64,000 nucleotides of DNA from Clostridia bacterium. GTDB lineage: Bacteria; Bacillota; Clostridia; Oscillospirales; Acutalibacteraceae. Position numbers and translations under genes: made by a program. The DNA is taken from NCBI GenBank assembly GCA_017520705.1, contig JAFXFF010000044.1:60108-124107 (forward strand). The letters run 5' to 3'. Of this stretch, positions 1,667 to 33,971 are shown piece after piece. How positions within the stretch are numbered: position 1 is the first letter of the stretch; each line of letters begins with the position of its first letter. A model generated the notes under the pieces. That model saw nothing but the letters and a program-made list of their open reading frames with translations, was not told the DNA's origin and ran no database searches.

Positions 1667-2809
1667 ATGATTATGCTGCAATTTGAAGAATTGAGATTAA
1701 AACTGGAGGCTCTGCTCCCCGGTATCGAGGATCTGGCCGGCTCCATCGGCCTGGACGGTCTGCGCCGTCAGGCGGAGGAGCTGGACGCCCAGGCCTCTGC
1801 CCCCGGCTTTTGGGACAATATGGAGTTTGCCCAGAAGATGACCCAGAAGGCCGCCGGCGTCAAGAGCAAGATCGAGGCCTACGAGCGTCTGCAGAGTGAC
1901 TACGCAGACACCCTGACCCTCATCGAGCTGGCAGACGAGGCGGAGGACCTCTCCCTGCTGGAGGAGTGCCAGGAGGGCTTCGACAAGGTGCAGAAGTCGA
2001 TGGAGACCCAGCGTCTGGCCACCCTGCTTTCCGGCGAGTACGACGGCAAGAACGCCATCCTCAACTTCCAGGCGGGTACCGGCGGCACCGAGGCGCAGGA
2101 TTGGGCCCAGATGCTGTACCGTCTGTACACCCGCTGGGCGGAGCGCCACGGCTATCAGTACAATATTCTGGACTATCAGGACGGCGACGAGGCGGGCATC
2201 AAGAGTGCCTCCATCGAGATCCTCGGCGAAAACGCCTATGGCTATCTGAAGAGTGAGAACGGCGTCCACCGTTTGGTGCGCATCTCTCCCTTCGACGCCT
2301 CCGGCCGTCGCCAGACCTCCTTTGCCGCGTTGGAAGTGATTCCTATGCTGGACAACGATACCTCCGTGGAGATTCGTCCCGAGGACATCAAGATGGACGT
2401 GTTCCGTTCTTCCGGCGCCGGCGGTCAGCACATCAACAAGACCTCCTCTGCCGTGCGTCTGACCCATATCCCCACCGGCATCGTGGTGGCCTGCCAGAAC
2501 GAGCGCAGCCAGTTCCAGAACCGCGACAAGTGTATGGAAATGCTGAAGTCCAAGCTGGTGAAGATCAAGGAGCAGGAACATTTGGATAAGCTCAGCGACA
2601 TCAAGGGTGCCCAGGCGCAGATCGCGTGGGGTAGCCAGATCCGCTCCTACGTGTTTATGCCCTACACACTGGCTAAGGACACCCGCACCGGCTTTGAGAG
2701 CGGCAACATTCAGGCAGTGATGGACGGCGAGATCGACGGCTTCATCAACGCCTATCTCCAGGCCCTCGCCAACGGCACCCTGGGCAAGGCTTCCGTGGCT
2801 GAGGAGTAA
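1667..2809 (+). CDS. prfB: Peptide chain release factor 2 (continuous frame, no +1 frameshift site)
   Basis: SPF tripeptide motif (RISPFDASGRRQTSFA) and GGQ motif (SSGAGGQHINKT). RBS GGAGAA precedes ATG at 1667. sigma-A-like promoter TTTACA-17-TATAAT at ~1607-1640. TAA stop. Confidence 0.9.
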   Translation: MIMLQFEELRLKLEALLPGIEDLAGSIGLDGLRRQAEELDAQASAPGFWDNMEFAQKMTQKAAGVKSKIEAYERLQSDYADTLTLIELADEAEDLSLLEECQEGFDKVQKSMETQRLATLLSGEYDGKNAILNFQAGTGGTEAQDWAQMLYRLYTRWAERHGYQYNILDYQDGDEAGIKSASIEILGENAYGYLKSENGVHRLVRISPFDASGRRQTSFAALEVIPMLDNDTSVEIRPEDIKMDVFRSSGAGGQHINKTSSAVRLTHIPTGIVVACQNERSQFQNRDKCMEMLKSKLVKIKEQEHLDKLSDIKGAQAQIAWGSQIRSYVFMPYTLAKDTRTGFESGNIQAVMDGEIDGFINAYLQALANGTLGKASVAEE

Positions 2810-12249: not shown

Positions 12250-12600
12250 TTGGGATATTATACCCAATTCTATGGGAGGTTGGGCGTCTTGACCGAAAAG
12301 GAACTGCGAAAACTGAACCGATACCAGCTTTTGGAGCTGCTGATGATGCAAACGGAGCAAAACCAGCAGCTCAGGCAGGAGATCGAGCATCTGCGAGAAC
12401 AGCAAATGCGGCTGGAGGAGATGGGCTCGGTGGCAGAGGCATCCCTGCTGCTGAACGGTGTATTTGAGGCGGCGCAAAAGGCTGCCGACGACTATTTGAG
12501 CGAGGCGCGCAACCGTGCACAACGGATCGTAGAGCGTGCCCGTCTGGAGGCGGAGTTATTCAATGAAACGGCAACTGTGGAAACCAAGGACGAAACCTAA
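12250..12600 (+). CDS. Small coiled-coil protein (hypothetical); true start probably TTG ~12280-12290
   Basis: Heptad-rich sequence (LRQEIEHLREQQMRLEE). RBS GGGAGG at ~12272. 3' end overlaps the signal peptidase gene. Confidence 0.35.
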   Translation: MGYYTQFYGRLGVLTEKELRKLNRYQLLELLMMQTEQNQQLRQEIEHLREQQMRLEEMGSVAEASLLLNGVFEAAQKAADDYLSEARNRAQRIVERARLEAELFNETATVETKDET

Positions 12601-13183
12601 GCACACCACCACGGTATCGGACACCCCGGAGCCGGAGGCGTTGCAGCAGGAACTCAAACGGGAACGAAACAAACGCCGATTCCGTAAGCTTTTGCGCAGT
12701 ACGGTCAGCGCTCTCATCGTGGCGGCAGCGGTGGCGGCCATCATCGCCACCATGATCCTGCCGGTATTGCAAATTGCCGGTACCAGTATGGAGCCGACCC
12801 TCTACGACGGGGACATCGTTCTGCTGGTCAAAACCGACAAACTGAAGACCGGTGACCTATGCGCCTTCTATTACTCCAACAAGATACTGATCAAACGGGT
12901 CATCGCGACCCCCGGCGACTACATCTGGATCGAGTCTGACGGCACCGTATTTCTCAACGGAGAAAAATTGGACGAGCCGTATCTCACCGTCAAAGCGCTG
13001 GGCGAATGCGACGTAGAATTCCCTTATCAAGTGCCTGAAAACCACTTCTTTATGATGGGGGATCAACGGGAAACCTCGGTGGACAGCCGCAGCAGCGTCA
13101 TCGGCTGTATCCCCGAAGATCAGGTGATCGGTAAGATACTGTGTAAATTCTGGCCCCTATCCCAATTTAACTGGATGGCATAA
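12563..13183 (+). CDS. lepB: Signal peptidase I (catalytic Ser/Lys retained), immediately upstream of the pilus genes
   Basis: TM helix; GTSMEPTL (Ser box); KRVIATPGD (Lys box); GDQRETSVDSR box E. Confidence 0.8.
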   Translation: MKRQLWKPRTKPKHTTTVSDTPEPEALQQELKRERNKRRFRKLLRSTVSALIVAAAVAAIIATMILPVLQIAGTSMEPTLYDGDIVLLVKTDKLKTGDLCAFYYSNKILIKRVIATPGDYIWIESDGTVFLNGEKLDEPYLTVKALGECDVEFPYQVPENHFFMMGDQRETSVDSRSSVIGCIPEDQVIGKILCKFWPLSQFNWMA

Positions 13184-13213: not shown

Positions 13214-16200
13214 GTGGAAGGCTTGCCGGAACAGTTAACGCAATACATATCCCAACTGAATAAGAGCAATTCCCGCCGTGCAGGCCTCCGCCAGGCGCTG
13301 TTCGCCCTCTCTCTGGTGGCGATACTCATCGTGTTCTGGTGTCTCAAACTGACCGGTATTACGATGGCCGGCGAAGCCTTCTGCGGCAAAGAAGAACACG
13401 TCCACACAGCCGAGTGTACGCAAACGGGATGTGCATTGGAAGAACATATCCACGACCCCACCTGCTACAGCAACGTCCAAATTGACGTAGAGACCGCCGA
13501 TGACTGGGAGCAGACGCTGGCCGGCATCACCCGCGGCGAGACCACGGCAGAGAACGTGGTGGCGGTAGCCACATCCCAACTGGGGTATCGGGAAAGTACG
13601 CAAAACTTCCAAGTGGACGCGAACGGTGTCCGACGGGGCATCACCCGCTACGGACAATGGTACGGCAACCCCTACGGCGACTGGTCGGCCATGTTTGCCT
13701 CCTTCTGCCTGCACTATGCCGGGGTGACCGACCTGCCTGCCAATGCAGGCGCCGAATCCATGCGACTGGAATGGGCAGAGGACGGCCTGTATCGGGCCGC
13801 GGCCCATTACGCACCGCAGGTAGGCGACCTGCTATTCCTCACCGAAAACGGCAGCACCGCCAACGCGGTGGCAATCATCACCGCTGTGAGTGACAGCGGC
13901 ATCACGGTGATACAAGGTGACGTGGAAGATGCCGTCAGCGAGGTAACCTATCCCCTCGACAGCACGCCTATTCTGGGGTACGGCACCGTGCCTGAACAAT
14001 CGGAGCTGACGGTGCTGGCCACCACACCTGACGGTGCCACCGTGGTGGCGCGTACCACCGCCTATTCAGCCGGTATGCTGACGCAGGGAAACAGCTTCGT
14101 CATCTACACCGTCAGCGGCGGCAACTATTACGCCATCGACGGCAGCGGCAACGCGGTGCCTGTGTACATAGAAAACGGCAACATTTTTGCGGATGTGGCA
14201 GATCCCAACACGCTGCTGTGGAATTTCACCGCCAACGGCTCCTCCTACGTTATCCGAAACGTAGGCACGGGGCGTCATCTCCACCCCTTCTACAACAGCA
14301 ATACCGATAACGGCGTCACCACCTCCGGCGGATGGACCACCTCGGTGGTCACCTCCGGCAACGGCGTCAAATTCCGCGCCTCTGCCTATGCCCGCCTAAA
14401 TGCGAGCGGCGGCAATTTCGTGATGACCCGTAACGAACAGGAGGGCACCGTATTCCAGTTTGGTGTGGTCAACAACCGCACCGTCTGGCTGGACGGTACC
14501 TGCGGAGGGATTATGAGCTTGGGCGGCTCCCCCAACACACCCTATACGGTGCTGCAGGGTGACGTCGTGAAACTTCCCACCGAATGGAAATCTCCTGACA
14601 AATACGCATACAAGCTGCGCGGCTGGTACGACGTGACCAACAACCGCTACTATCTGCCCGGTGCAGAGGTGACGGTCACCGACCATATGGTATTCTACGC
14701 CGATTGGACAGCAGAAACCTACGACGTGGGCCAATTCAATTCCCACGTAGCGGAAACCACCAGCACCAACCAGTTTGTCACTGTCCGTATGTTTGACTAC
14801 GGGCCTCTGTTCAACCTCTTATCCACACGAGCCAACGTCACGGTAAACAGCAGCGGACACACCGAGACCTGGAACCTCTTGACCTCCGGAAACAATCCCT
14901 ACAACGGAGATCCTACGCTGAACTTCATCTTCCGTGACTGGGACCGCGGCAACGAGGATATCTCCTATCCCAACGGCACCAATGCGGCTAACAACCCCAC
15001 CGACGCCGGCAGCGTGTATCCGGGACTGTATACGGATAACTTGGGCAGCCTGCTCTTCGACCCCGAATTGCAGGTCCTCGGCAAACAGTATTTGGGTGAG
15101 GGCGATCATCTATTCCAGCTCTGTGTGGATCCCAACGATCCCAATTACGGCTATTACTACTACGATTCCCAGCGCAACGCGGCATCGTATAACCAAAGCG
15201 ACGGACGCTTCTATGTCTACGACTATCTGGAGTGCACCCGCGACTCGCTGAACAACGGTTATGCAGACTTTTTGCCACTGAACTCTCCCTACGCCAATAC
15301 CAATGGCAAGCTCATCCCCACCTACCAATACGGAGGTGTCAACGGTGAATACGACGGTGTGACCCACTATTCGTACGACAGTAAGTACAACACCAACGGC
15401 AACAACACCGACCACGTGGGCGCCAACTACTGGTATGGTATGAGCGTAGACATTCAGTTCTATCTCCCCCACGTCCCCGGTACGATACTGGAAAACGGTC
15501 GATACGGCAACCAGGACCTCTACGGCGGCGATATGCACTTCCATTTCGCCGGCGACGACGACGTATGGGTGCTGGTGGACGGCAAAATGGTGCTGGACCT
15601 GGGCGGTATCCACGGTGTCGAGAACGGCGATATCAACTTCTCCACCGGCGTGGTCACCGTCAACGGCAGGGTGAATACGGCATTGTCCAACACCCTCAAG
15701 AGCATCTAGCCCGGCGAGCACACACTGACCCTCTACTATCTGGAACGCGGTAGTTCCAAATCCAACTGCGCTTTCCGTTTCAATTTGGCGCCCCGATTCA
15801 GCCTCGCCCTTCAAAAAGAGGACGTGCTGACCCGCCACCTGCTCAACGGTGCCCAGTTCTCGGTCTTCACCGACAAAGCCTGCACCCAACCGGCCACCCT
15901 GTGGACCAGCCAGCAGGCCTACTACGCCAACGAGGATCCCAACCACGTATTTACCGTTGTAAACGGTAAAGCCGATATGTGGGGACTCATCGCTGGCGAG
16001 ACCTATTACATCGTGGAGACCAAGCCGCCCGACGCCACCGGCTACATCGGAGCGGACGGCATTATCTGCCTGACCATCGACAAAAACGGTATCGCCTCCT
16101 ACTCGGTGGAGGTGAGGGAGAACGCTGACGGCGAACTTTCGCCCGGTTTCACGGTCCACGGTGTGAAAATTGATGAGGAAACCCAGCAAGCCTTCCTCAT

Positions 16201-17509
16201 CGCCACTAACGCGCCCGAGACCATCACCGAAGCCACCAGCGTGACAGTGAACAAGATCTGGGACGACGACAAGGATCACTCCGCCGATTACATCACGGTG
16301 TATTTGACGGTGACCGACCCCGACGGGACGGTGCGCCGCATCCGTGAAGTGATCCTCAGCGCGGAGAACAACTGGCAGTATACGTGGGAAAACCTTCCCA
16401 AGACCGACGCCGACGGCAACATCGTCCAATACGGCGTCAGCGAATCCACCGTTCCCGGCTACGTGAGTCGGGTTGAGATCACAGAAGGACCGCCGGGAGG
16501 TGACAGCTCCGACGGTGAAGGTAGTGGTCCCGGAGATGTGACAGCGGTGGGGAGCTTCCAAAACGGCCAAACCTATCTGCTGAGCACCAGATTCGGCTGG
16601 CTGACCGCCAACAACAATCAGTTGGGACTGGTCACCAATCAGCAGACTGCCGCCGGCTCCGACAGCGCCCTGTGGGTGGCAACGGTTAACGGTGACGGCA
16701 CCGTCACCCTGACCAACAAACGAGGACAAACCCTCTATTACGACAACTACACCTTCAAGGCAGGCTCCTCACCGGGAACCTACAAAAACCTCCGCTTTGC
16801 GGACAACCGTCTATACTGCTATATCAATCACGGCGGGTGGAGCGAGACGCAATATCCCATTGACGACGACAACGTCCCCAGTAACCTGACCTACAACCAC
16901 GTGTTGTATACCACCAACAACAGTGCACAAGCCCTGGTGATCACACCGCAGGCTCTGGGCGGCAGTCCGCCGGAACCCGAGCCTGAGCCGCCTCCCGACA
17001 GCGGCGGAGGTGACAAACACTTCCAGATCACCAACACGCCGGCAGGCCAGGCCGTCACCTCCCTTACCGTCCATAAGATATGGGATGTAGGCGACCTGGG
17101 AGATGCCTCGCTGTACGAGAAGCTGGTGGTACAAATCCGTCTGCTGGCTAACGGCGTGGACGCCGGCCTTACAGGTCAGCTCAGCCTCAAGAACGGATGG
17201 GTCTACACCTTCCAGGATCTGCCACTATACGACAGTGGCGGTCAAATGGTGGTGTACACCGTGGAGGAACAATTCATCTCGGAGGATTGGATCGTGCACT
17301 ACGGCAACGTCATCTCCTCCGGCGGAAGCAGCCCCACCTACACGGTCAACGTGACCAACACGTACCGAACAGGGGGGCCCATGTTGCCGGCCACCGGCAC
17401 GGCGGCACGTCTGTACTTTGTACTGTGCGGAGCGAGCATCATGCTCGGAACGCTGGTATACGGATTTGCATTGAGGCGTAAGCGTAAGCGAGAAAGGAGG
17501 TTAGAGTAG
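13214..17509 (+). CDS. Giant LPXTG pilus tip adhesin (CHAP/NlpC-like, fibro-slime/PA14-like, beta-trefoil-like, 2x CnaB), interrupted by an in-frame TAG at 15707-15709. Possible pseudogene, phase-off allele or readthrough.
   Basis: Track ORFs 13214..15709 and 15785..17509 are in the same frame; the translation reads …NTLKSI*PGEHTLTLYYLERGSSKSNCAFRFNLAPRF… uninterrupted except for TAG. C-terminus is LPATG + TM + RRKRKRERR. Probable start TTG 13223 after GAGGAGG. Confidence 0.75.
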
Positions 17510-17601: not shown

Positions 17602-19104
17602 ATGAAAAAGATCGTTACTCTGTTACTGGTCCTGGCACTCACCCTGAGCCTGTCCTGCGCGGTTTCTGCCGCTGAGGTCGGTTCCATTACCATCAACAAC
17701 ATTGCCGCCGACACCACCTACGAGATCTACCAGCTGTTGGATCTGGAGAGCTATGACAGCGTCTCCGGTGCCTACTCCTACAAGGTAAACAGTGCCTGGA
17801 CCGCCTACTTCGACACCGCCGAGGCGCAGGCCTACATCACTGTGGATGCCGCCGGCTATGTGACCTGGGTGGCCGGTGAGGACGATGCCACCGTGGCCGC
17901 CTTCGCACAGAAGGCTTTGGCCTATGCCGAGGCCCACAGCATTGCCCCCGTTAAGTCCTCTCAGAATCCCGGCGATTTCGCCATCACCGGTACCACCGGC
18001 GTGTTCTCCGATCTGCCTCTGGGCTACTATCTGGTAGACTCCACCGCCGGCGCCCTGTGCGGCCTGACCACCACCGACCCCGACGCCGCCATCAACGCTA
18101 AGAACGGCGTGCCCACCATCGACAAGCAGGCGCAGGAAGATCTGAGCGGCATGTGGGGCGACCACAACACCGCCGACATCGGCCAGATCGTCAACTTCAT
18201 GACCATCATCCACGCTGCCCCCGGTGCCCAGAACTACGTGATGCACGATACCATGTCTGCCGGTCTGACCTTTGTGCAGGATACCGCCAACGACCGCGGC
18301 GTCACTCAGGTCGTACATATCAACAGCCTGGGTGTGGAAACTGTTCTGACCCCCGGCATCGACTACACCGTCAACGATGCCCCCTCCGATAGCTGTACCT
18401 TTGAAGTGGCTCTGACCGAAAGCTTCATCGGCACCCTGAAGGCCAACGACCGCATCATCACCTACTACAACGCCATGCTGAACCGTCACGCCATCGCCGC
18501 CGGCGATGGTAACCCCAACGAGAGCTGGCTGGAGTACGGCGAAGAGAAGTACACCACCCACGATCAGACCAAGACCTACACTTTCTCCATTGACATTGTT
18601 AAGACCGATTCCTCCAACAAGCTGATCGACGGCGCTAAGTTCAAGATCTACGACGCCGCCACCGACGGCAACGAGATCAAGGTCGTGCCCCTGAAGGAGG
18701 CCGACGACGTGACTCCCGTGCTGGATGCCAACGGCAACCCCGTCTATCGCCGTGCCCGTGCCGACGAGGAAGGTGTGGAGATCGAGGTCGTCGACGGTAA
18801 GGTGACCGTGGTGGGCTTTGACAATGGTGTCTACTATCTGGAGGAGACCGCTGCCCCCGCCGGTTACAACAAGCTGACCGCCCGTAAGGAGTTCACCATC
18901 GCCGACGCCAACCTGGATTCCGTCTTCAGCGGCGGCATCTACTCCACCGGTTCCGGCGTGCACGTGGTCAACAAGACCGGTACCATGCTGCCTGAGACCG
19001 GCGGCGTGGGCACTGTCATCTTCGTAGTGCTGGGTACCCTGGCCGTGCTGGGTGCCGGCGTGCTGCTGGTGACCAAGAAGAGAATGGCTATGATCCAGGA
19101 GTAA
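17602..19104 (+). CDS. Major pilin (SpaA-like) with E-box and LPETG sorting signal
   Basis: Signal peptide; E-box YYLEETAAPAGYNKL; LPETGG + TM + KKR tail. Confidence 0.85.
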   Translation: MKKIVTLLLVLALTLSLSCAVSAAEVGSITINNIAADTTYEIYQLLDLESYDSVSGAYSYKVNSAWTAYFDTAEAQAYITVDAAGYVTWVAGEDDATVAAFAQKALAYAEAHSIAPVKSSQNPGDFAITGTTGVFSDLPLGYYLVDSTAGALCGLTTTDPDAAINAKNGVPTIDKQAQEDLSGMWGDHNTADIGQIVNFMTIIHAAPGAQNYVMHDTMSAGLTFVQDTANDRGVTQVVHINSLGVETVLTPGIDYTVNDAPSDSCTFEVALTESFIGTLKANDRIITYYNAMLNRHAIAAGDGNPNESWLEYGEEKYTTHDQTKTYTFSIDIVKTDSSNKLIDGAKFKIYDAATDGNEIKVVPLKEADDVTPVLDANGNPVYRRARADEEGVEIEVVDGKVTVVGFDNGVYYLEETAAPAGYNKLTARKEFTIADANLDSVFSGGIYSTGSGVHVVNKTGTMLPETGGVGTVIFVVLGTLAVLGAGVLLVTKKRMAMIQE

Positions 19105-19215: not shown

Positions 19216-20052
19216 ATGCTGAGCAAAAAAGCGACAATCCTATTGCTGGTCTTCTTTTTCATAGGTTTGTCCGTGCTGTTGTATCCCAGCATCAGCAGCT
19301 ACTGGAACTCCAAGACCCAGAGTGAGGCCATTGTAGACTACGAGGAGATGCTGGCCAACTACAAGCCGGAGGACCGCACCGCCCTCTTTGAAGCCGCCGA
19401 CGCCTACAATCAAAAGCTGGCGGCACTATTCCAGCCCCTGCAGGAGTATGGGGCACTATCCGAGGAATACTGGAAAACGCTGGACGTCACCGGAACGGGC
19501 ATGATGGGGTACATCACCATACCCAAAATCAGTCAAGAGCTGCCCGTCTACCACGGCACCTCAGATGCGGTGCTGGGTAAATCGGTGGGCCATCTGCAGG
19601 GCTCCAGCCTGCCGGTGGGCGGTGTCAGCACCCACAGCGTGGTATCCGCCCATCGCGGACTGCCCTCGGCGGTGCTGTTTACCCACCTGGATCGCATGGA
19701 GGTGGGCGACACCTTTTCCTTCACCATCCTGGACCGCACCTTTACCTATGAGGTGGATCAGATCCGCATCGTGGAGCCGGACGACACCAATCTGCTCCGC
19801 TTAGAGACGGGCAAGGACTACTGCACCCTGCTGACCTGCACCCCCTACGGTATCAACACCCAGCGTCTGCTGGTACGAGGTCACCAGATCGACGCCAGCC
19901 AAAAGAGCAATCTCTACATCGCCAATGAAGCCTATCGGGTGGACACCCTCATCGTCACACCCTTGGTGGCGCTGCCCATCATTTTGGCCCTGCTCATCTA
20001 CGTGATGCTGGCCCCCGTCAAGAAAGAACAGTTAGGAGAGGATACGCTATGA
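19216..20052 (+). CDS. srtC: Class C (pilus-polymerising) sortase
   Basis: N-terminal TM; HRGLP (His); TLLTCTPYG (Cys); LLVRGH (Arg); C-terminal TM lid/anchor. Confidence 0.9.
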   Translation: MLSKKATILLLVFFFIGLSVLLYPSISSYWNSKTQSEAIVDYEEMLANYKPEDRTALFEAADAYNQKLAALFQPLQEYGALSEEYWKTLDVTGTGMMGYITIPKISQELPVYHGTSDAVLGKSVGHLQGSSLPVGGVSTHSVVSAHRGLPSAVLFTHLDRMEVGDTFSFTILDRTFTYEVDQIRIVEPDDTNLLRLETGKDYCTLLTCTPYGINTQRLLVRGHQIDASQKSNLYIANEAYRVDTLIVTPLVALPIILALLIYVMLAPVKKEQLGEDTL

Positions 20053-20954
20053 CAAAACGAATACTTGCGTGTGTGCTGGCGGTATTCTGCCTGCTGATGC
20101 CTCTGTCGGTGCAGGCGGAGGAATTGAACACCGAGCAGCTGTGCAATCTGACGCTGGAATATTCCCACGAGGGGGTGGCCTTTGCCGATGTGGAAGTGGC
20201 TATCTATCGGGTGGCAGAAGCGCATACGGACGGCTCCTACGACCTCATCGCGCCCTATGACGCATACTCCGTCAACATCCACGGCATCACCTCCCAAAAG
20301 GAATGGCAGGACGTGGCGGCTACCTTAACCGCCTATATTACCGCCAACGGGGTCGAACCCACCGCGAGCGGAGTCACCGACAAGGCGGGCGAGGTGGTTT
20401 TGAGCGACTTGCCCGTAGGATTGTACCTCGTACAAGGTGCCCGTGCCGAAAATGAAAAGGGCACCTACGTATTCCGCGAGTTTATGATCTACCTGCCCAC
20501 GCCTGCAGAGGACGGCACCTACCAATACGATCTGCGTGCGAAGCCCAAATGCCACCAGTACACCCCCACCGAAAACTATCGGGTGGTGAAACTGTGGAAG
20601 GACACGGGTAGCGCCCTGCGCCCCGATGAGGTGGTGGTGGACATCTACAAGAACGGTGCGCTCCACGAGACGGTGTCGCTGAATGGAAACAACGGCTGGA
20701 GCTATGAATGGACCGACAAGGAACAAGCGCGGTGGCAGGTGACAGAGCGGGACGTGCCGGAGGGCTATCAGGTATCCGTCACCAACCACGAGACGGTATT
20801 TACCATCACCAACGCAAACCCCGACGCTCCTCCCCCGCCACCCGCTACGGGGGACAGCTTCCCTTGGCTGATGTGGGTTGTGATCGTATGTCTGGTGGGC
20901 TTTGCGCTGGTGCTGGTGGCTCTGTGGGGACGACGATATGAAAAGACGAAATAA
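20049..20954 (+). CDS. Minor/basal pilin with CnaB-type domain and non-canonical PPATG sorting signal
   Basis: Signal peptide; YRVVKLWKD… CnaB fold; PPPPATGDSFPW + TM + GRRYEKTK. Confidence 0.7.
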   Translation: MTKRILACVLAVFCLLMPLSVQAEELNTEQLCNLTLEYSHEGVAFADVEVAIYRVAEAHTDGSYDLIAPYDAYSVNIHGITSQKEWQDVAATLTAYITANGVEPTASGVTDKAGEVVLSDLPVGLYLVQGARAENEKGTYVFREFMIYLPTPAEDGTYQYDLRAKPKCHQYTPTENYRVVKLWKDTGSALRPDEVVVDIYKNGALHETVSLNGNNGWSYEWTDKEQARWQVTERDVPEGYQVSVTNHETVFTITNANPDAPPPPPATGDSFPWLMWVVIVCLVGFALVLVALWGRRYEKTK

Positions 20955-21501
20955 GTGGATACTGTGGGCGGGTGTAGCCCTCATTGCCGTCAGCCTGTGT
21001 GCGGCGGCGGTGTTCGGCCTGCTCCAGCGACGCGGCGAGCGACAGGCGGCGGACATCGCACGGCAAATCGAGGCGGCACTGCCGCCCCGCACCGTGGGCG
21101 CGGAAGAGGCCTACAGCGTGATGCAGATGCCTGCCCTGAGCATTGAGGGCGAGGACTTTGTGGGGCTGGTGGAGATCCCCGCCTACGGGGTCACGCTGCC
21201 CCTCTGTGACGAGTGGCAGCCTACCCAGCTGAACCGCTATCCCTGCCGCTTTTGGGGTACGGCGTATGACGGCAGTCTCATCATCGGCGGCGGTGCCAAA
21301 CAGTTTGCCTGCCTCGGGCAGATACAAAACGGCGACGAGGTGCGGGTGACGGATATGCAAGGGGCGGTGTTCACCTACACCGTGACCCGTATCCGCCGTA
21401 CCGACCACGCGGATGCAAAGACACTTAAAAATGAAGCGTCACTCACGCTGTTTGCGCGGGACGGAGCCAATATGGAGTATATTATAGTAGAATGTATGTA
21501 A
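20938..21501 (+). CDS. Sortase-fold protein lacking the His-Cys-Arg catalytic triad (degenerate sortase paralog)
   Basis: N-terminal TM. Aligns block-by-block with the srtC product (LVEIPAYGVTLPL ~ ITIPKISQELPVY; FTYTVTRIRR ~ FTYEVDQIRI), but HRG becomes GGGAKQ, TLLTC becomes TLFARD, and the protein ends before the Arg. Confidence 0.55.
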   Translation: MKRRNKWILWAGVALIAVSLCAAAVFGLLQRRGERQAADIARQIEAALPPRTVGAEEAYSVMQMPALSIEGEDFVGLVEIPAYGVTLPLCDEWQPTQLNRYPCRFWGTAYDGSLIIGGGAKQFACLGQIQNGDEVRVTDMQGAVFTYTVTRIRRTDHADAKTLKNEASLTLFARDGANMEYIIVECM

Positions 21502-21754: not shown

Positions 21755-21892
21755 GACGGGGTGCATCTCACTTTTAGGTGGGGTGCCTTTTTGCTTTTCC
21801 CGGGGTGCAAATGAGGTGCAACCCGAAAACCGGGTGAGGTGCATCCTCCTCCGGGTGGGGTGCAAACCACACCCCGGGGTGCAACTTAGAAC
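21755..21892. repeat. Cluster of ~7 GGGGTGCA(A) heptamer/octamer repeats
   Basis: ggggtgcatc / ggggtgcc / ggggtgcaaatgaggtgcaa / gggtgaggtgcatc / ggggtgcaaac / ggggtgcaac within 140 bp. Confidence 0.6.
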
Positions 21893-22362
21893 GAAGCCTC
21901 ATAATAATAGAAATTTCCACAGATGTGCTCTGTATAATACCGATTATCCCCATTGGGTTCTTGACACTCAAATCCATTTCCGGAAGGAGTCAACGCACTG
22001 GCAGACGACGGTGCGCACCACACAGCAGCCATATCGTTTTCCGAGGTATAATAGAAACCTACATAAGAGGTACCCGAACCTACACCAGCACCACCACAGG
22101 AAAAGTCAACAACCGTTTCGTCTGCATCGATTTCTTTGATAAAGCCTTTATTCTCATATGCAGAAAAGTCTCCAGCTTCAATTGCCTTCAGCAGTTCTTC
22201 CTCATTCTCACTCACGAAATCAAAAACCTCGTCTTTATCGGCGCTATCATCCCCTGTTGCGACAAGGAAAAGGAAAAAAGCACCACCCAAGATATCCGAG
22301 CACCCAGACAGAGAAAACACCATAATTACAGCCAAAAGCAGGGCTAATCCTTTTTTTAGCAT
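21886..22362 (-). CDS. Lipoprotein of unknown function
   Basis: MLKKGLALLLAVIMVFSLSGCS lipobox; Cys/Tyr-rich C-terminus. Confidence 0.55.
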   Translation of the reverse strand: MLKKGLALLLAVIMVFSLSGCSDILGGAFFLFLVATGDDSADKDEVFDFVSENEEELLKAIEAGDFSAYENKGFIKEIDADETVVDFSCGGAGVGSGTSYVGFYYTSENDMAAVWCAPSSASALTPSGNGFECQEPNGDNRYYTEHICGNFYYYEASF

Positions 22363-22366
22363 ATTC

Positions 22367-22948
22367 TCACTCCCGTCCCAGCAGCAGCGCATATTGGTTA
22401 GACAAAACTTTTGACAAAACGCAGAACACCGCAGACATTACCACACCACACCACACCAGCGGTGATGACATCGCAATCCCACCTGCATAGTGGATCGTCG
22501 CCCAAACATATCCCAAAAGCGTGATTCCTAAGGTTGCAAGGCAGGAACAGACAGAAAAAATCTTTCGATTTTTATACACCCGGAGGAAAAACCAGTTTGC
22601 CAGAGACAAGAGGTATCCGGTTGCAGGAACAATCAGCGCCACTGCCCACAATCCGTTGGTATTTCCTGTAGGGGTACTACCTTCTAAAATTACACCCAGC
22701 GTAATAATGGCAAAGGAAACGAATAGCATTACCGATTGTAGGACAGACGCTTTCCAATCACTCACACGACGCAGCTTCACAGTATTCGGTTTTTCTTCAA
22801 AACTTTGGCATGTCTCACGCATCTGATCATATATTTTGCGGCAACTCTCACATGCGTCAAGATGCTCGGCTACAAGTCTTGCACTTTCTTCCGAACAACA
22901 TTCATCCACGTATAGGGGCAGCAGATCCATTATTACATTGCAGTCCAT
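22367..22948 (-). CDS. Anti-sigma factor, zf-HC2 type, with TM domain
   Basis: MDCNVIMDLLPLYVDECCSEESARLVAEHLDACESCRKIY (HxxxCxxC zinc motif) followed by 4 predicted TM helices. Confidence 0.75.
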   Translation of the reverse strand: MDCNVIMDLLPLYVDECCSEESARLVAEHLDACESCRKIYDQMRETCQSFEEKPNTVKLRRVSDWKASVLQSVMLFVSFAIITLGVILEGSTPTGNTNGLWAVALIVPATGYLLSLANWFFLRVYKNRKIFSVCSCLATLGITLLGYVWATIHYAGGIAMSSPLVWCGVVMSAVFCVLSKVLSNQYALLLGRE

Positions 22949-22949
22949 A

Positions 22950-23414
22950 TTATCGACCCAATCCTTCCATAATTTTTTGTTTGGCACGGTAGTAAGTAAC
23001 ACGAGCCCAGCTTTCACTTTTTCCAAACATCGCACTGATATCTTTCAACGATAGGCCGCCAAAAACAGAAAGCATAAAAACTTCTTTGTATGGCTCTTCC
23101 AAGGCGTGCAGGAGGGAAAAGGCTCTGCCGGCAAGTTCCTTTTCCTCGAAAAGCTCGGCAATGTCAGGTGTGCTATCCGCAGATATTGGCTGTGAAATTG
23201 GCTGATTTCTTTTCTGTTCGTTGAACCAAGCAAAGTATGTATTTTTTGCAATTTGGCACAGCCATAATGCTACTTTTTCTTCGTTTCTCAGAGCTGATAA
23301 GTTCATATACGCACGAAAAAAGGTTTCCTGCGTTAGTTCCTCTGCCAAAGATACATCACCGCATAGTTTCATCAAAAAACGAAAAACGAATTGATCGTTC
23401 TCTCGGAACACCAT
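22950..23414 (-). CDS. ECF (sigma-70 family) RNA polymerase sigma factor
   Basis: Region 2 (FRFLMKLCGDVSLAEELTQETFFRAY) and region 4 (GGLSLKDISAMFGKSESWARVTYYRAKQKI). Stop abuts the anti-sigma start. Confidence 0.8.
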   Translation of the reverse strand: MVFRENDQFVFRFLMKLCGDVSLAEELTQETFFRAYMNLSALRNEEKVALWLCQIAKNTYFAWFNEQKRNQPISQPISADSTPDIAELFEEKELAGRAFSLLHALEEPYKEVFMLSVFGGLSLKDISAMFGKSESWARVTYYRAKQKIMEGLGR

Positions 23415-23550
23415 TTCAAAGTCCAGCACACCCTCACCACCTTTCACTTATTAGATTGGGAAATAGTAAAAACGTTACAATTATTATACAGACACCAGCG
23501 TGATTTTTCAAATATGTTGCGAAATAAGTTCTATACTGTTGATCCGTCGA

Positions 23551-23821: not shown

Positions 23822-23906
23822 TGGTGCGAGGGAGGGGACTTGAACCCCCACGCCATTTGACACACGCACCTCAAACGTGCCTGTCTGCCGATTCCAGCAC
23901 CCTCGC
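23822..23906 (-). tRNA. tRNA-Leu (anticodon GAG), type II with long variable arm, CCA encoded
   Basis: Reverse complement GCGAGGG-TG-CTGGAATCGGCAGA-…CACGT-TTGAGGT-GCGTG-…-GGGGGTTCAAGTCCCCT-CCCTCGC-A-CCA. 7-bp acceptor stem, T-loop TTCAAGT, anticodon loop TT-GAG-GT, discriminator A73 (Leu-type). Confidence 0.75.
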
Positions 23907-28327: not shown

Positions 28328-31300
28328 TTAGTTGGCGTTTTTCTCCACAGCCAAGGTGACCACCTCACCGTTGATATTCCACTCCTTGACGTAGCCGGCG
28401 GTCTCGCCCACGGTCAGGGCGGTGGCCATCACGTCGGAGCCGATGGACTCCCAGTTGCGACCCACCAACTTCTCCACGCTCTCGTTGCCGGTGACGTAGA
28501 CGGAGATGGTATCCATCACCTCGAAGCCGGCCTCTTTACGCATGGTCTGCAGCTTGCTGACCACCTCGCGGACAAAGCCCTCCTCAATGAGTTCGGGAGT
28601 CAAGCGAGTGTCGATGGCCACGGTGATGCCACGGTCGGAGACGGTGTAATAACCCTCGGTCTAGGTGGTCTCGATGAGCAGATCCTCGGTAGCCAGTGTC
28701 ACGTCGCCGCTCGCCAAATTCAGGGTGATAGCACCCTTCTCATTGAGCTCGGCCATGGTGGCATTGCCGTCCAGCTCGGTGAGGGCGGTGCGGATCTCGT
28801 TCAACTGCTTACCATACTTGGGGCCGACGGTCTTGAGCTGAGGCTTGAAGGAGTAGCTCATAAAGGCGGCGGCGTCGGTGATAAACTCCACCGACTTGAT
28901 ATTCAGCTCGTCGGCGATGATGGCGGTGCAGAACTCGTCCAAGGAGCCGTCCATCTGGACGTACATCTTGCCCAAGGGCTGACGATTCTTGCAGGCGGCG
29001 CCGTTACGGGCGGCACGACCCTGCACCACGATCTGCAGAACGCTGTCCATAGCGGTCTCGAGGGCGGTGTCGATGTAAGCCTCATTGACCTCAGGATAGG
29101 CGCACAGATGGACGCTGACAGGAGCGGTGGGATCGTTCTCACACACCAGATTGCGGTAGATATCCTCCGCCATGAAGGGAATCATGGGAGCGGATGCCTT
29201 GGCCACCGTCACCAGAGCGGTGTACAGGGTCATATAGGCGTTGATCTTATCCTGAGGCATATCCTTGCCCCAGAAGCGCTCACGGCTACGGCGGACGTAC
29301 CAATTACTCAGCTCGTCCACGAAGTCCTGCAACACGCGAGAAGCCTCAGGGATGCGGTAGTTGGCCAGATGATCGTCCACCGCTTTCACGCAGGAATTGA
29401 GACGAGACAAAAGCCACTTATCCATCACGGACAATTTGTCGTATTCCAGGCTGTACTTGGTGGCATCGAAGCCGTCAATGTTGGCGTACAGCACGAAGAA
29501 GGCGTAGGTGTTCCACAGAGTGCCGAGGAACTTGCGCTGGCACTCCTGCACCGCCTTACCCGAGAAGCGGTTGGGCAGCCAGGGAGCGGAGTTGGAATAG
29601 AAGTACCAACGGATGGCGTCGGCGCCGTAGGTCTCCAGCGCCTCGAAGGGATCCACGGCGTTGCCCTTGGACTTACTCATCTTCTGGCCGTCGGCATCCT
29701 GCACGTGACCCAAGACGAGGACGTTCTTATAGGGTGCCTTATTGAACAGCAGGGTGGAAATCGCCAGCAGAGAATAGAACCAACCACGGGTCTGGTCCAC
29801 GCCCTCGGAGATGAAATCGGCGGGGAACTGCTTAGCAAAGACATCCTGATTCTCGAAGGGATAGTGATGCTGGGCGAAGGGCATAGCGCCGGAGTCGAAC
29901 CAGCAGTCGATGACCTCGGGCACACGCTTCATCACGCCGCCGCAATCGGGGCAACGCAGGGTGACCGCGTCGATGAAGGGACGGTGCAACTCCACGTCCT
30001 CGGGACAGTCGATGGCCATCGATTTCAACTCTTCACGGCTGCCGATGGCGTGCTGACAGCCGCAGGAGCACTCCCAAATATTGAGAGGTGTACCCCAATA
30101 GCGGTTACGGCTGATACCCCAATCCTGCACGTTCTCCAGCCAGTCGCCGAAGCGACCCTTGCCGATGGATTCGGGGATCCAGTTGACGGTGTTGTTGTTG
30201 CGGATGAGATCCTCCCGCACGGCGGTCATCTTGATAAACCAAGACTCACGGGCGTAGTAGATCAGAGGCGTGTCGCAACGCCAGCAGAAGGGATAATCGT
30301 GCTCAAACTTAGGCGCATCGAACAGCTGACCGCGGGAGTCCAGATCCACCAAAATCTTGGGGTCGGCGTCCTTGACGAACAGGCCGGCGAAGGGGGTGTC
30401 CTCGGTCATATGACCGGCGCCGTCCACCAACTGCACGAAGGGCAGGTCGTACTTACGACCAACCTGGGCGTCGTCCTCGCCGAAGGCGGGAGCGATATGC
30501 ACGATACCGGTACCATCGGTCATGGTGACGTAGCCGTCGCAGGTGATGTAGAAGCCGTCCTTCTTCTGCTTGTCGGCCAGCGCCTTGGCACAATCGTAGA
30601 GGGGCTCGTAGGCCTTGCGCTCCAGGTCGCGGCCCACGTAGGTCTCCAGCACCTCGTAGGCGGGAGTGTCCTCGGTAGCCAGCTTGCCCAGCACGCGGTC
30701 CAGCAGAGCCTCGGCCATATAGTAGGTGTAGCCGTCAGCGGCCTTTACCTTGCAATAGGTCTCGTCGGGGTTGACGCACAGCGCCACGTTGGAAGGCAGG
30801 GTCCAAGGGGTGGTGGTCCAAGCGAGGAAATAGGCGTCCTCGTCGGCCACCTTAAAGCGTACCACGGCGGAGCGCTCCTTGACGCACTTGTAGCCCTGAG
30901 CCACCTCGTGGCTGGACAGAGGGGTGCCGCAACGGGGGCAATAGGGAACGATCTTAAAGCCCTTGTACAGCAACTGCTTGTCCCAGATCTGGCGCAGGGC
31001 CCACCACTCGGACTCAATGTAATCGTCGTGATAGGTGACGTAGGGATCGTTCATATCCACCCAGAAGCCAACGGTGCCGGAGAAGCCTTCCCACATGCCC
31101 TTGTACTTCCAGACGCTCTCTTTACACTTCTCGATGAAAGGCTCCAGACCGTATTTCTCGATCTGCTCCTTGCCGTCCAGACCCAGCTGCTTCTCCACCT
31201 CCAGCTCGACGGGGAGACCGTGGGTATCCCAGCCCGCCTTACGGGGAACCATCTGGCCCTTCATGGTGCGGTAGCGGGGAACCATATCCTTGATAACACG

Positions 31301-31483
31301 GGTCAACACGTGGCCGATATGGGGCTTACCATTGGCCGTGGGAGGGCCGTCGTAGAAGGTGTAGGTCTCCCCTTCCTTGCTCTGCTCCAAGGACTGCTCG
31401 AAGACCTTATTCTCAGTCCAGAACTGCAGCACCTCGCGCTCACGCTGTACAAAATCCATATTGGTCGATACTTTCTTGTACAT
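28328..31483 (-). CDS. ileS: Isoleucine--tRNA ligase, type 2, interrupted by an in-frame TAG at 28661-28663
   Basis: HIGH (PTANGKPHIGHVLTRV) and KMSKS motifs. Track ORFs 31540..28661 and 28621..28328 are in the same frame, and conserved C-terminal sequence continues: …EDLLIETT*TEGYYTVSDRGITVAIDTRLTPELIEEGFVRE…. Start ATG 31483 after GGAGGT. Confidence 0.9.
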
Positions 31484-31775
31484 CTCAATACCTCCAAACA
31501 ATAAAAAATCCCCCGTCCCGCAAAACAGGACGAAGGTCAAACTTCGCTATACCACCTATTTGCACGTACCATCATACGCCGCCCCGCTAACGGTGGGCAA
31601 CCGTCCGCGCCTAATAGGAAACATCCGTTCAGCCGGCAACTCCCGAGGGATATTCACGCAGGCTCTCTCCGTCGGGCTTACACCCTCCCCGACTCGCTGT
31701 GGGATATACCCCTGCGCTACTGACTCGTTCACTGTTTTTAATTATCATACAATATAATAGCGGATAGCGGAGGAA
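31484..31775 (-). promoter_or_regulatory. Candidate T-box leader with terminator/antiterminator upstream of ileS
   Basis: Leader strand shows promoter TTGACA…TATTAT, AGAGAG (AG-box), T-box-like AATAGGTGGTATAGCG, and intrinsic terminator tcgtcc-tgttttgcg-ggacgggggATTTTTTATT just before the RBS. Confidence 0.5.
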
Positions 31776-33280: not shown

Positions 33281-33821
33281 AGCCCTCCTTTTCCAGCTCT
33301 GATCTTAAGGCGTTTTTGGCGCGGAAAACCAAGTTCTTCATTTGGCGGGACGTCTTACCCATCACGGCGGCTGTCTCGGCGTGGGACAGATCCTCAAAAT
33401 AGAGCAACCAAAGCACCTGCCGATACTCGGTATGCAACCGGTTCAAGGCTTGGTGCAAGACAATTTTTTGCTCCTCGACAAGATAATTTTGTTCCAAATC
33501 GAAACGATCGCCGGCCGTGCCCTCTAACTCGTTCAACGAGATATCCGCTCGCTTTTGGCGGCGGAGATAATCGATAGCAACGTGACGACCGATGGTATAC
33601 AGCCACGTTTTGAATGAATAGGCAGAACGGTACTTCGGCTTTTTCGTGATGAGTTTGAAAAGCGTCTCCTCCATCAGCTCCTCGGCAGTAGAGAAATCGT
33701 TCACAATACCGCAAAGATAGAGGGTCAGTCCGTCACTGTACTCCCGCACGATTTCCGCTAAACCCGTATCGTCGCCGTCAAGGAAACGGCGGTAGCTACT
33801 GGCACCGTTGTCCATTGACAT
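33258..33821 (-). CDS. ECF sigma factor (copy 1 of tandem duplicate)
   Basis: Regions 2 and 4 (EELMEETLFKLITKKPKY…; LYFEDLSHAETAAVMGKTSRQMKNLVFRAKNALR). Confidence 0.8.
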   Translation of the reverse strand: MSMDNGASSYRRFLDGDDTGLAEIVREYSDGLTLYLCGIVNDFSTAEELMEETLFKLITKKPKYRSAYSFKTWLYTIGRHVAIDYLRRQKRADISLNELEGTAGDRFDLEQNYLVEEQKIVLHQALNRLHTEYRQVLWLLYFEDLSHAETAAVMGKTSRQMKNLVFRAKNALRSELEKEGFVYEELR

Positions 33822-33971
33822 GCTCCTTTCCGAAAGGTAATTTTTACCCTTTCACTTATTAAACGATTGAGAACGGAAAAGGTCTCAGCAACAGTATAAA
33901 ATAATTTGGAGAAAAATGCAAGAAAAGGCGAAAGCCTCCGCAGACGGTGTCTGCGGAGGCTAGTTTATCTA

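What the first reader, a model, noticed from the sequence alone, without database searches (positions are those of the whole stretch)
15650..15800. Second in-frame TAG (15707-15709) splits the giant pilus tip adhesin inside its fibro-slime/PA14-like domain
ORFs 13214..15709 and 15785..17509 are in the same frame, and the conserved domain sequence runs straight across the stop (…NTLKSI*PGEHTLTLYYLERGSSKSNCAFRFNLAPRF…). Only the second part carries the CnaB domains and the LPATG sorting signal, so termination at this TAG would release an unanchored N-terminal fragment. This could be a phase-off or pseudogenised adhesin allele (surface adhesins are frequent targets of on/off switching), an error, or readthrough or suppression. 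It is the second conserved gene with an internal amber in 64 kb, whereas all other genes checked end in TAA or TGA except two with genuine TAG stops.
Basis: partly seen in the sequence, partly recalled or inferred. Interest (0 to 1): 0.7.

Follow-up and report, generated by a model that had tools for sequence, protein, structure and literature searches.

The report
Private nonsense SNP splits pilus adhesin
One C-to-T change, seen only in this metagenome-assembled genome, turns a glutamine codon into a stop inside a gut bacterium's pilus-tip adhesin gene. It is an ordinary knocked-out allele or an assembly error, not a sign of an unusual genetic code.

Summary
TAG at 15707-15709 interrupts one 1428-codon gene (13223-17509) inside its fibro-slime/PA14-like domain. 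Only the downstream part carries the CnaB/SpaA stalk and the LPATG anchor.

The window is a GenBank MAG from a ruminant gut, annotated "Clostridia bacterium" and related to Faecousia (Oscillospiraceae). Its two fragments are MBR3779524.1 and MBR3779525.1. Near-identical contigs (99.95-99.99%) from at least 10 other assemblies of the same clone cover the whole window. All four that reach this site read CAG (Gln) and encode an intact 1428-aa protein.

The "other" in-frame amber is in ileS (28661-28663, minus strand). It is also a MAG-private CAG>TAG; all eight comparators read CAG.

The organism uses the standard code:
- TAG ends a sigma-factor gene where its paralog ends in TGA.
- Only 2 of 379 CAG codons are affected.
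- No suppressor tRNA, recoding RNA structure or repeat tract is present.

Verdict: a recent loss-of-function point mutation or a consensus error. The tools here cannot tell which, because there are no reads. The seven private SNPs are all protein-altering and six are G:C>A:T. An amber in ileS is hard to square with viability, so a small chance of Gln-inserting amber suppression remains. Ordinary; low interest.

The parts
13223..15706 (+). N-terminal 828 codons of the pilus tip-adhesin gene. They hold a signal/TM segment, a Cys/His-rich motif, lectin-like repeats and the first about 3/4 of the fibro-slime/PA14-like domain. This is GenBank MBR3779524.1.
   Evidence: The exact 828-aa product is in NCBI as IKL13_07410.
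15707..15709 (+). In-frame amber codon (codon 829 of 1428). The change is C>T at 15707, CAG(Gln)>TAG, and is private to this MAG.
   Evidence: All 4 near-identical comparator contigs have C here. P0001-P0006 have Q.
15710..17509 (+). In-frame remainder of the adhesin gene (599 codons plus a TAG terminator). It holds the last beta-strands of the PA14-like domain (YYLERGSS.SNC motif), SpaA and 2x Cna_B stalk domains, and the LPATG sorting signal with a hydrophobic segment and basic tail. PGAP called a 574-aa CDS from TTG 15785 (MBR3779525.1), which has no RBS.
12563..13183 (+). Signal peptidase I, the first gene of the pilus cluster.
   Evidence: TIGR02227, 130.7 bits.
17602..19104 (+). Major (backbone) pilin of the SpaH/EbpB family, with LPETG.
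   Evidence: (NF033902, 107.7 bits).
19216..20052 (+). Class C (pilin-polymerising) sortase with the TLLTC motif.
   Evidence: (NF033745, 263 bits).
20049..20954 (+). Minor, probably basal, pilin with Cna_B and a PPATG-type sorting signal.
20938..21501 (+). Second small sortase-domain protein.
   Evidence: PF04203 on the identical product in L001.
28328..31483 (-). ileS, a type-2 isoleucyl-tRNA synthetase of 1051 codons. It carries the other MAG-private amber at codon 941 (28661-28663; G>A on the + strand at 28663, which is CAG>TAG).
   Evidence: All 8 comparators have CAG.
31523..31741 (-). T-box leader that regulates ileS.
   Evidence: RF00230, 96.7 bits, above gathering score.

Best explanation
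The TAG is a very recent single-base substitution: C>T, CAG Gln > TAG amber, at codon 829 of 1428. It lies in the tip-adhesin gene of a sortase-assembled pilus operon and is carried only by the sub-population from which this one ruminant-gut MAG was assembled.

The organism uses the standard code, so translation stops inside the PA14/fibro-slime carbohydrate-binding domain. The 828-aa product keeps the signal peptide. It lacks the last two or three core beta-strands of that domain, the SpaA/CnaB stalk and the LPATG sorting signal. It therefore cannot be joined by the class C sortase to the major pilin or to the cell wall. The result is an adhesin-null allele; pili, if made, would have no tip adhesin. 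The downstream 574-599 codons have no RBS or signal peptide and are not expected to give a functional product.

Shown: the substitution, that it is private to this MAG, the intact conspecific and orthologous genes, the standard code, and the domain layout. Inferred: the fate of the truncated protein, and that the change exists in cells and not only in the assembly. Any low-level natural readthrough of UAG by near-cognate tRNA-Gln would rebuild the wild-type protein. No specific mechanism for that is evident.
For: - The C>T at 15707 is one of only three differences from L001 and L002 over 19.7-24.3 kb, and one of one or two from the shorter L003 and L004. All four have C at this site.
- The whole window is covered by near-identical contigs. 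Only 7 positions are private to the window, among them both ambers.
- Intact 1428-aa P0001 occurs on 4 contigs. Close orthologs P0002-P0006 have Q at the site, and the position varies across 120 homologs (T/S/A/G/Q...), so no special residue is expected there.
- Orthologous loci in six related genomes are single ORFs of 1387-1460 aa ending in an LPxTG anchor.
- Standard code: TAA 28, TGA 20, TAG 2 among 50 genes. The sigma-factor gene 34936-35493(-) ends ...FVYEEL-TAG where its paralog ends ...FVYEELR-TGA. Only 2 of 379 CAG codons are TAG.
- The sequence is what was deposited. The 828-aa and 574-aa fragments are MBR3779524.1 and MBR3779525.1 on a 124,107-bp contig.
- The stop falls between helix 223-230 and the best-predicted strand 235-246 of the modelled domain, which has pLDDT above 90 there.
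- The private-SNP density (1.1e-4 per base) on a 124-kb Illumina contig is higher than typical consensus error. One nearly private SNP (22438) is confirmed in an independent assembly.
Against: - No other assembly of the same clone carries the TAG, and no reads are available, so the change may exist only in this assembly.
- The companion amber lies in T-box-regulated ileS. It should be strongly deleterious if real and unsuppressed, which casts doubt on both.
- The private SNPs look unselected: 2 nonsense of 6 G:C>A:T changes (P=0.015) and none synonymous (P=0.018).
- Both ambers create CTAG, a tetranucleotide otherwise absent from all genes in the window.
Confidence: 0.45

Rival explanations
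1. Consensus or assembly artefact. The T at 15707 and the A at 28663 are errors of this one MAG assembly, caused for example by low local coverage, damaged-cytosine reads, read 'pre-correction' or bubble resolution in a co-assembly. The cells carry CAG and an intact adhesin.
For: - Both ambers are absent from every other assembly of the same clone, from 4 and 8 contigs and at least 5 BioSamples.
- The truncated products exist in a 15-billion-protein collection only as the NCBI MAG entries.
- An amber in ileS is hard to reconcile with a viable dominant lineage.
- The private SNPs look unselected and are 6/7 G:C>A:T, a deamination-like spectrum.
- Other assemblies of the clone also carry disruptions in the same two genes: a 1-bp deletion in ileS in ERZ27256864 and a frameshifted adhesin fragment P0123. 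That shows the noise level.
- The MAGs came from MEGAHIT/IDBA-UD single and co-assemblies.
Against: - Illumina consensus substitution errors are normally far rarer than 1e-4 per base on a 124-kb contig.
- One nearly private SNP is independently confirmed.
- Random errors would be about 49% synonymous or intergenic, and none is.
Confidence: 0.38
2. Tolerated ambers. This lineage carries a Gln-inserting amber suppressor, either a mutated tRNA-Gln or a tRNA(CUA) from a TAG>Gln-recoded temperate phage, or it reads UAG through unusually often. Both CAG>TAG changes would then be phenotypically near-silent and full-length adhesin and IleRS would still be made.
For: - Both nonsense changes are amber and both replace Gln. 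P is about 0.10 given two random transition nonsense hits.
- One hits ileS.
- TAG is a rare terminator here, 2 of 50 genes.
- TAG>Gln-recoded phages typically encode suppressor tRNAs, and a recoded prophage of this kind (Topaz) is documented in an Oscillospiraceae genome (bioRxiv 10.1101/2021.08.26.457843).
- T-box control would raise ileS expression if charging fell.
Against: - The window holds no suppressor tRNA, only tRNA-Leu(GAG), and no phage genes.
- CAG>TAG is the commonest nonsense transition anyway, 32% of them.
- Natural TAG terminators remain, one of them with no backup stop within 100 codons.
Confidence: 0.08
3. Phase variation. The adhesin is switched off and on reversibly at this site.
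For: Surface adhesins and sortase pili are known targets of ON/OFF switching, for example poly-G slippage in Bifidobacterium breve pilus clusters (PMC9187656, listed).
Against: - The site is a unique-sequence point substitution (AGCATC[C>T]AGCCCGG) with no homopolymer, repeat or inverted repeat.
- All other assemblies are uniformly CAG.
- Reversion would need the exact back-mutation.
Confidence: 0.03
4. Genetic-code change, pyrrolysine or programmed readthrough. TAG is a sense or recoded codon here by design.
For: Two in-frame TAGs in conserved genes within 64 kb.
Against: - Both are private to one assembly and 0.5% of CAG codons are affected.
- TAG terminates genes.
- The aligned residue is an unconserved Gln.
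- The flanks are identical to CAG-bearing relatives, so no recoding element can have evolved there. The downstream 100 nt fold no better than shuffles, z = +0.6 and +0.5.
- The window has no pyl genes or tRNA-Pyl.
- The release factor in the window is RF2, which does not bear on UAG.
Confidence: 0.01
5. Two genuine genes: a secreted N-terminal lectin and a separate anchored stalk protein, as PGAP annotated.
For: GenBank lists two CDSs, MBR3779524.1 and MBR3779525.1.
Against: - The split falls inside a single domain.
- The second CDS starts at a TTG with no RBS and no signal peptide.
- Every homolog and conspecific is one ORF.
Confidence: 0.01

Closest known systems
Tip pilins or adhesins of sortase-assembled Gram-positive pili (SpaC of Lacticaseibacillus rhamnosus GG, RrgA of S. 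pneumoniae, CnaA of C. perfringens VR-10B; PMC8088525)
   Same: The operon has signal peptidase, a large LPXTG protein, a SpaH/EbpB-type major pilin, a class C sortase and a minor pilin. The protein has an N-terminal binding region followed by a CnaB/SpaA stalk and a sorting signal.
   Different: The binding module is a fibro-slime/PA14-like lectin domain with further uncharacterised N-terminal modules, not a vWFA or collagen-binding domain. In this MAG the gene is cut by an amber codon. No experimental data exist for this family.
PA14 / fibro-slime carbohydrate-binding domains (for example the PA14 domain of Marinomonas primoryensis RTX adhesin, PDB 6M8M/6X7Z)
   Same: Best HMM matches are TIGR02148 (E 2.7e-11) and PF07691 (E 1.4e-4). 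The best Foldseek PDB hit is the PA14 sugar-binding domain of an RTX adhesin.
   Different: Scores are just under the curated cut-offs (43.8 vs 45 bits; 22.2 vs 24 bits). The fold match is weak (E 0.014, TM 0.2-0.3), partly because half of the model has low confidence.
Spontaneous CAG>TAG amber mutations at CCAG contexts (the classical lacI amber hotspots at 5-methylcytosine in CCAGG; recalled from Coulondre and Miller 1978, not read here)
   Same: Both private nonsense changes are C>T at the second C of CCAG and give CTAG.
   Different: Neither site is CCWGG. No methyltransferase or methylation data are available. CCAG/CTGG are not over-represented, so there is no signature of very-short-patch repair. 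This is a resemblance only.
TAG>Gln recoding with suppressor tRNAs in gut phages and prophages (code 15; Borges et al., bioRxiv 10.1101/2021.08.26.457843)
   Same: In-frame TAG aligns with Gln, and the host family (Oscillospiraceae) is known to carry such prophages.
   Different: Here the TAGs are in two chromosomal host genes, number only two, are private to one assembly, and lie in a genome that terminates genes with TAG. The window has no phage genes or suppressor tRNA.

Membership tests
Sortase-assembled pilus tip adhesin (LPXTG pilin) | C-terminal cell-wall sorting signal: LPXTG, a hydrophobic stretch and a basic tail | tested here: met
   The sequence ends LPATG-TAARLYFVLCGASIMLGTLVYGFAL-RRKRKRERRLE. 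PF00746 scores 21.8 bits against a cut-off of 20. The signal lies downstream of the amber codon.
Sortase-assembled pilus tip adhesin (LPXTG pilin) | Isopeptide-type stalk domains (CnaB / SpaA prealbumin-like) | tested here: met
   PF05738 Cna_B scores 101 bits over 2 stretches. PF17802 SpaA scores 30.6 bits.
Sortase-assembled pilus tip adhesin (LPXTG pilin) | Encoded next to a major pilin and a class C sortase | tested here: met
   NF033902 major pilin, 107.7 bits (17602-19104). NF033745 class C sortase, 263 bits (19216-20052).
Sortase-assembled pilus tip adhesin (LPXTG pilin) | Uninterrupted reading frame from signal peptide to sorting signal | tested here: not met
   TAG at codon 829 in the window. 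The frame is intact in conspecific contigs L001-L004 and in orthologs.
Sortase-assembled pilus tip adhesin (LPXTG pilin) | Location at the pilus tip and adhesive activity | not testable with these tools
   Needs immuno-EM and binding assays. The tip role is inferred from gene order and size only.
Fibro-slime / PA14 domain | Match to the family HMM above the curated cut-off | tested here: inconclusive
   TIGR02148 scores 43.8 bits against a cut-off of 45 (E 2.7e-11), over aa 769-855 across the stop. PF07691 scores 22.2 bits against 24. Several homologs carry a precomputed PF07691 hit.
Fibro-slime / PA14 domain | PA14-like beta-sandwich fold | tested here: inconclusive
   The AF2 model has mean pLDDT 65, with the C-terminal half at 82-96. 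The best Foldseek PDB hit is the PA14 domain 6M8M at E 0.014, probability 0.82.
Stop-codon reassignment (TAG>Gln, code-15-like) | Many in-frame TAGs at conserved sense positions across genes | tested here: not met
   Two of 55 genes are affected, and 2 of 379 CAG positions.
Stop-codon reassignment (TAG>Gln, code-15-like) | TAG no longer used as a terminator | tested here: not met
   TAG ends the sigma-factor gene at the same point where its paralog ends in TGA. TAG also ends the adhesin gene.
Stop-codon reassignment (TAG>Gln, code-15-like) | In-frame TAGs shared by close relatives | tested here: not met
   All near-identical contigs have CAG at both sites.
Stop-codon reassignment (TAG>Gln, code-15-like) | Suppressor tRNA with a CUA anticodon, or loss of RF1 | not testable with these tools
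   The window holds only tRNA-Leu(GAG) and prfB.
Pyrrolysine decoding | pylTSBCD genes, with TAG in methylamine methyltransferase-type genes | tested here: not met
   The window has no tRNA-Pyl and no pyl genes. The TAGs are in an adhesin and in ileS, at unconserved Gln positions.
Phase-variable surface protein (contingency locus) | Hypermutable repeat tract or invertible element at the switch site | tested here: not met
   The context AGCATC[C>T]AGCCCGG is unique sequence and the change is a substitution.
Programmed stop-codon readthrough | Conserved stop with a conserved stimulatory context or structure | tested here: not met
   The stop is not conserved. The downstream 100 nt fold at z = +0.62 (adhesin) and +0.50 (ileS) against shuffles.

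The most novel reading that the evidence does not exclude
This MAG's lineage carries a glutamine-inserting amber suppressor. One candidate source is a tRNA(CUA) brought in by a TAG>Gln-recoded temperate phage of the kind already seen in Oscillospiraceae. Host CAG>TAG mutations would then be nearly neutral and would be starting to accumulate in chromosomal genes, including ileS. That would be an early, natural step of host codon capture driven by a phage.
Probability: 0.05. Interest if true: 0.7.

Novelty: already known. Interest (0 to 1): 0.15.

Why it matters
As it stands it matters mainly for annotation. GenBank lists the two halves as separate proteins (MBR3779524.1 and MBR3779525.1), although they are one adhesin gene carrying a private nonsense SNP. 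ileS in the same MAG has the same defect. It also shows that internal stops in MAGs need read-level checks before any biological reading.

If the mutation is real, it is a natural adhesin-null variant of an uncharacterised but widespread Oscillospiraceae pilus family; more than 3000 homologs were found. Only the unlikely suppression scenario would be of broader interest.

Tried and rejected
- Exact 36-mer with Y at the SNP, searched in GTDB genome contigs and JGI metagenome contigs: no hits. The allele frequency could not be surveyed there.
- Exact look-up of the truncated 828-aa and 940-aa products in the encoding-contig index: not on record. The window's own versions of two proteins carrying other private SNPs were also not on record. 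The V>M allele at 22438 was found once, on a 1-kb contig too short to reach either TAG.
- Nanopore methylation-motif error: rejected, because the dataset is Illumina NovaSeq.
- Deaminase-toxin (5'-TC) signature: rejected by reading the contexts. The 5' neighbours of the private C>T changes are C, C, A, G, G, C.
- Very-short-patch repair drive as the cause of CTAG depletion: rejected, because CCAG/CTGG have O/E of 0.8.
- A shared 10-mer AYC[C>T]AGMCCG at both amber sites occurs only at those two sites, but it was defined after the fact. The 8-mer core occurs 8 times and is unmutated 6 times. Treated as weak.
- RF gene in the window as a possible cause: rejected. It is prfB (RF2), unchanged, and does not read UAG.
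- Downstream restart for either gene: no in-frame start with an RBS within 300 nt after the adhesin TAG.
- Structure search gave only weak PA14 matches.
Full report
**1. The observation**

The window reads ...AAG AGC ATC TAG CCC GGC GAG..., with TAG at 15707-15709. The reading frame is open for 841 codons before the TAG and 599 after it. The best start is TTG 13223, with AGGAGG 8 nt upstream. That gives a 1428-codon gene with the stop at codon 829.

The fibro-slime model TIGR02148 aligns to residues 769-855 of the joined protein, straight across the stop (E 2.7e-11, 43.8 bits, cut-off 45). Pfam PA14 also spans it weakly. Cna_B (2 stretches), SpaA and the LPXTG anchor are found only downstream. 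TTG 15785 has no Shine-Dalgarno sequence, and no other in-frame start within 300 nt has one.

**2. What the gene is**

The gene sits in a typical sortase-pilus cluster:

| Coordinates | Gene |
|---|---|
| 12563-13183 | signal peptidase I |
| 13223-17509 | the large LPATG protein |
| 17602-19104 | SpaH/EbpB-type major pilin with LPETG |
| 19216-20052 | class C sortase (TLLTC) |
| 20049-20954 | CnaB minor pilin |
| 20938-21501 | second small sortase |

A tip-adhesin role is inferred from size, gene order and the N-terminal lectin-like modules. It was not tested.

An AlphaFold model of residues 600-880 is confident only in its C-terminal half (pLDDT 82-96). It places the stop between a short helix and the longest, best-predicted beta-strand, GEHTLTLYYLER. 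The best PDB fold match is the PA14 sugar-binding domain of an RTX adhesin, but weakly (E 0.014).

**3. Where the window comes from**

The exact 828-aa N-terminal product and the 574-aa product from TTG 15785 are in NCBI. They are MBR3779524.1 ([quoted passage not shown]) and MBR3779525.1, on a 124,107-bp contig. The TAG is therefore in the deposited record.

Near-identical contigs come from ENA and Logan assemblies named XIEF21-1_SAMN158300xx and SRR125293xx. These match the ruminant gastrointestinal metagenome study of Xie et al. 2021, which used Illumina NovaSeq, PCR-free libraries, MEGAHIT and IDBA-UD, with both single-sample and co-assemblies (PMC8199421). The closest named genomes are Faecousia sp. 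and other Oscillospiraceae MAGs, at 71% amino-acid identity or less.

**4. Comparison with the same clone elsewhere**

A protein search found 3226 homologs. The best 120 are all full length (1299-1757 aa). P0001 is identical to the window's joined protein except for Q at the stop position. Six orthologous loci in related genomes are single ORFs of 1387-1460 aa ending in an LPxTG anchor.

Contigs encoding P0001 and other window proteins cover all 64 kb at 99.95-99.99% identity. Only seven positions differ from every comparator:

| Position | Effect |
|---|---|
| 11418 | L>R |
| 15707 | Q>* |
| 28663 | Q>* |
| 34427 | V>I |
| 50659 | G>D |
| 51936 | A>T |
| 62814 | R>C |

Position 22438 (V>M) differs from four of five comparators and is shared with one independent assembly. 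At 15707 all four comparators have C, giving CAG.

**5. The other amber**

The second in-frame TAG is in ileS (31483..28328, minus strand), at codon 941 of 1051 (28661-28663)...LLIETT*TEGYY.... All eight comparators, from at least five BioSamples, have CAG there.

The enzyme is a type-2 IleRS and is preceded by a T-box leader. The roughly 110 residues lost align with conserved C-terminal sequence of the Priestia megaterium IleRS2 structure 8C8U. Truncation should therefore be harmful, unless the enzyme is complemented by another copy, the stop is suppressed, or the change is not real.

**6. The genetic code**

- Among 50 genes whose boundaries were taken from independent gene calls, stops are TAA 28, TGA 20 and TAG 2.
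- One TAG ends a sigma-factor gene at ...FVYEEL*, while its tandem paralog ends ...FVYEELR* with TGA. The other TAG ends the adhesin gene itself.
- Only 2 of 379 CAG codons are TAG.
- The window's only tRNA is Leu(GAG). Its release factor is RF2. Rfam finds only the T-box.
- The 100 nt after each TAG fold no better than shuffles.
- The flanks are identical to those of CAG-bearing relatives, so no dedicated recoding signal can exist.

Reassignment, pyrrolysine and programmed readthrough are rejected. Phase variation is not supported either, because the change is a substitution in unique sequence.

**7. Chance and mutation spectrum**

Six of the seven private SNPs are G:C>A:T. In this window, random G:C>A:T changes would be 3.3% nonsense, 48% missense, 38% synonymous and 10.5% intergenic. 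That gives:

- P(at least 2 nonsense of 6) = 0.015
- P(all six protein-altering) = 0.018
- P(both nonsense hits are CAG>TAG) of about 0.10

These values are post hoc, and the window was picked because of the stops, so they are only suggestive.

Isolated singletons in the comparator assemblies are 7 non-synonymous, 3 synonymous and 3 intergenic, plus 2 indels. One of those indels is a 1-bp deletion in ileS (ERZ27256864). Separately, another assembly holds a frameshifted adhesin fragment, P0123. Micro-differences among assemblies of this clone therefore look largely unselected, and the same two genes are disrupted in other assemblies too.

**8. Verdict**

The TAG is a single-base difference private to this MAG. 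Under the standard code it truncates the adhesin inside its binding domain and removes the stalk and the anchor. It is either a very recent loss-of-function mutation (about 0.45) or a consensus error (about 0.38).

A Gln-inserting suppressor would explain why both hits are CAG>TAG and why ileS tolerates one. TAG>Gln-recoded prophages with suppressor tRNAs are known in Oscillospiraceae. Nothing in the window supports this, so I give functionally relevant suppression or readthrough about 0.08, and the phage-borne suppressor with accumulating host ambers (my novel reading) about 0.05. This is an ordinary feature with an annotation consequence: the two GenBank CDSs are fragments of one gene.

Noticed in passing
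window 28661-28663 (-), in ileS 28328-31483: A second MAG-private CAG>TAG amber lies at codon 941 of 1051 of the type-2 isoleucyl-tRNA synthetase. All 8 comparator contigs have CAG. The lost C-terminal 110 aa are conserved with P. megaterium IleRS2 (8C8U).
   Followed up: yes
window 6527, 15706, 28661, 33960: CTAG is almost absent: 4 copies against 85 expected from a Markov model and 40+-5.6 in codon-order shuffles. The only two intragenic copies are the ones created by the two private amber SNPs (CCAG>CTAG). Related Clostridia loci L015-L028 are depleted too.
   Followed up: partly
window 11418, 15707, 28663, 34427, 50659, 51936, 62814 (and 22438): All MAG-private SNPs change the protein. None is synonymous or intergenic, and 6 of 7 are G:C>A:T. 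This looks like an unselected spectrum or a mutator or damage-like one. It remains unexplained.
   Followed up: partly
window 15704-15713 (+) and 28657-28666 (-): Both amber sites share the flanks A-Y-C-[C>T]-A-G-M-C-C-G. This 10-mer occurs nowhere else in the window. The 8-mer core CCAGMCCG occurs 6 more times unmutated. The motif was defined after the fact, so the evidence for a context-specific process is weak.
   Followed up: partly
L005 (ERZ27256864 k141_1544636), equivalent to window 30725; protein P0123: Other assemblies of the same clone also disrupt these two genes. ERZ27256864 has a 1-bp deletion in ileS, which is called there as 796 aa. A 1750-bp ENA contig holds a frameshifted adhesin fragment.
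   Followed up: partly
window 31523-31741 (-): A T-box leader (RF00230, 96.7 bits) lies directly upstream of ileS.
   Followed up: no
window 1673-2809 (+): prfB (release factor 2) is encoded in one uninterrupted frame, so no programmed +1 frameshift is needed. In L041 (SAMN15830035) the gene calls here are fragmented: a 108-aa RF-1-domain ORF next to an unrelated 244-aa ORF.
   Followed up: no
window 32180-35493 (-): Two tandem sigma-70/anti-sigma gene pairs share 84%-identical 256-bp segments. Contig L008 carries only one pair, a recombination or deletion variant.
   Followed up: no
window about 21,800-23,450, next to tRNA-Leu(GAG) at 23822-23906 (-): A low-GC3 segment (GC3 about 0.42 against about 0.75 elsewhere) encodes a sigma factor, a zf-HC2 anti-sigma protein and a 158-aa protein. 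It lies between the pilus operon and the tRNA gene and is the most polymorphic stretch among the comparator contigs.
   Followed up: no
window 58466-62752 (-) and 62755-63108 (-): An unusually long (1428 aa) BlaR1-type M56 peptidase sensor lies next to a BlaI/Penicillinase_R repressor. By coincidence it has the same length as the adhesin, but the two are unrelated.
   Followed up: no
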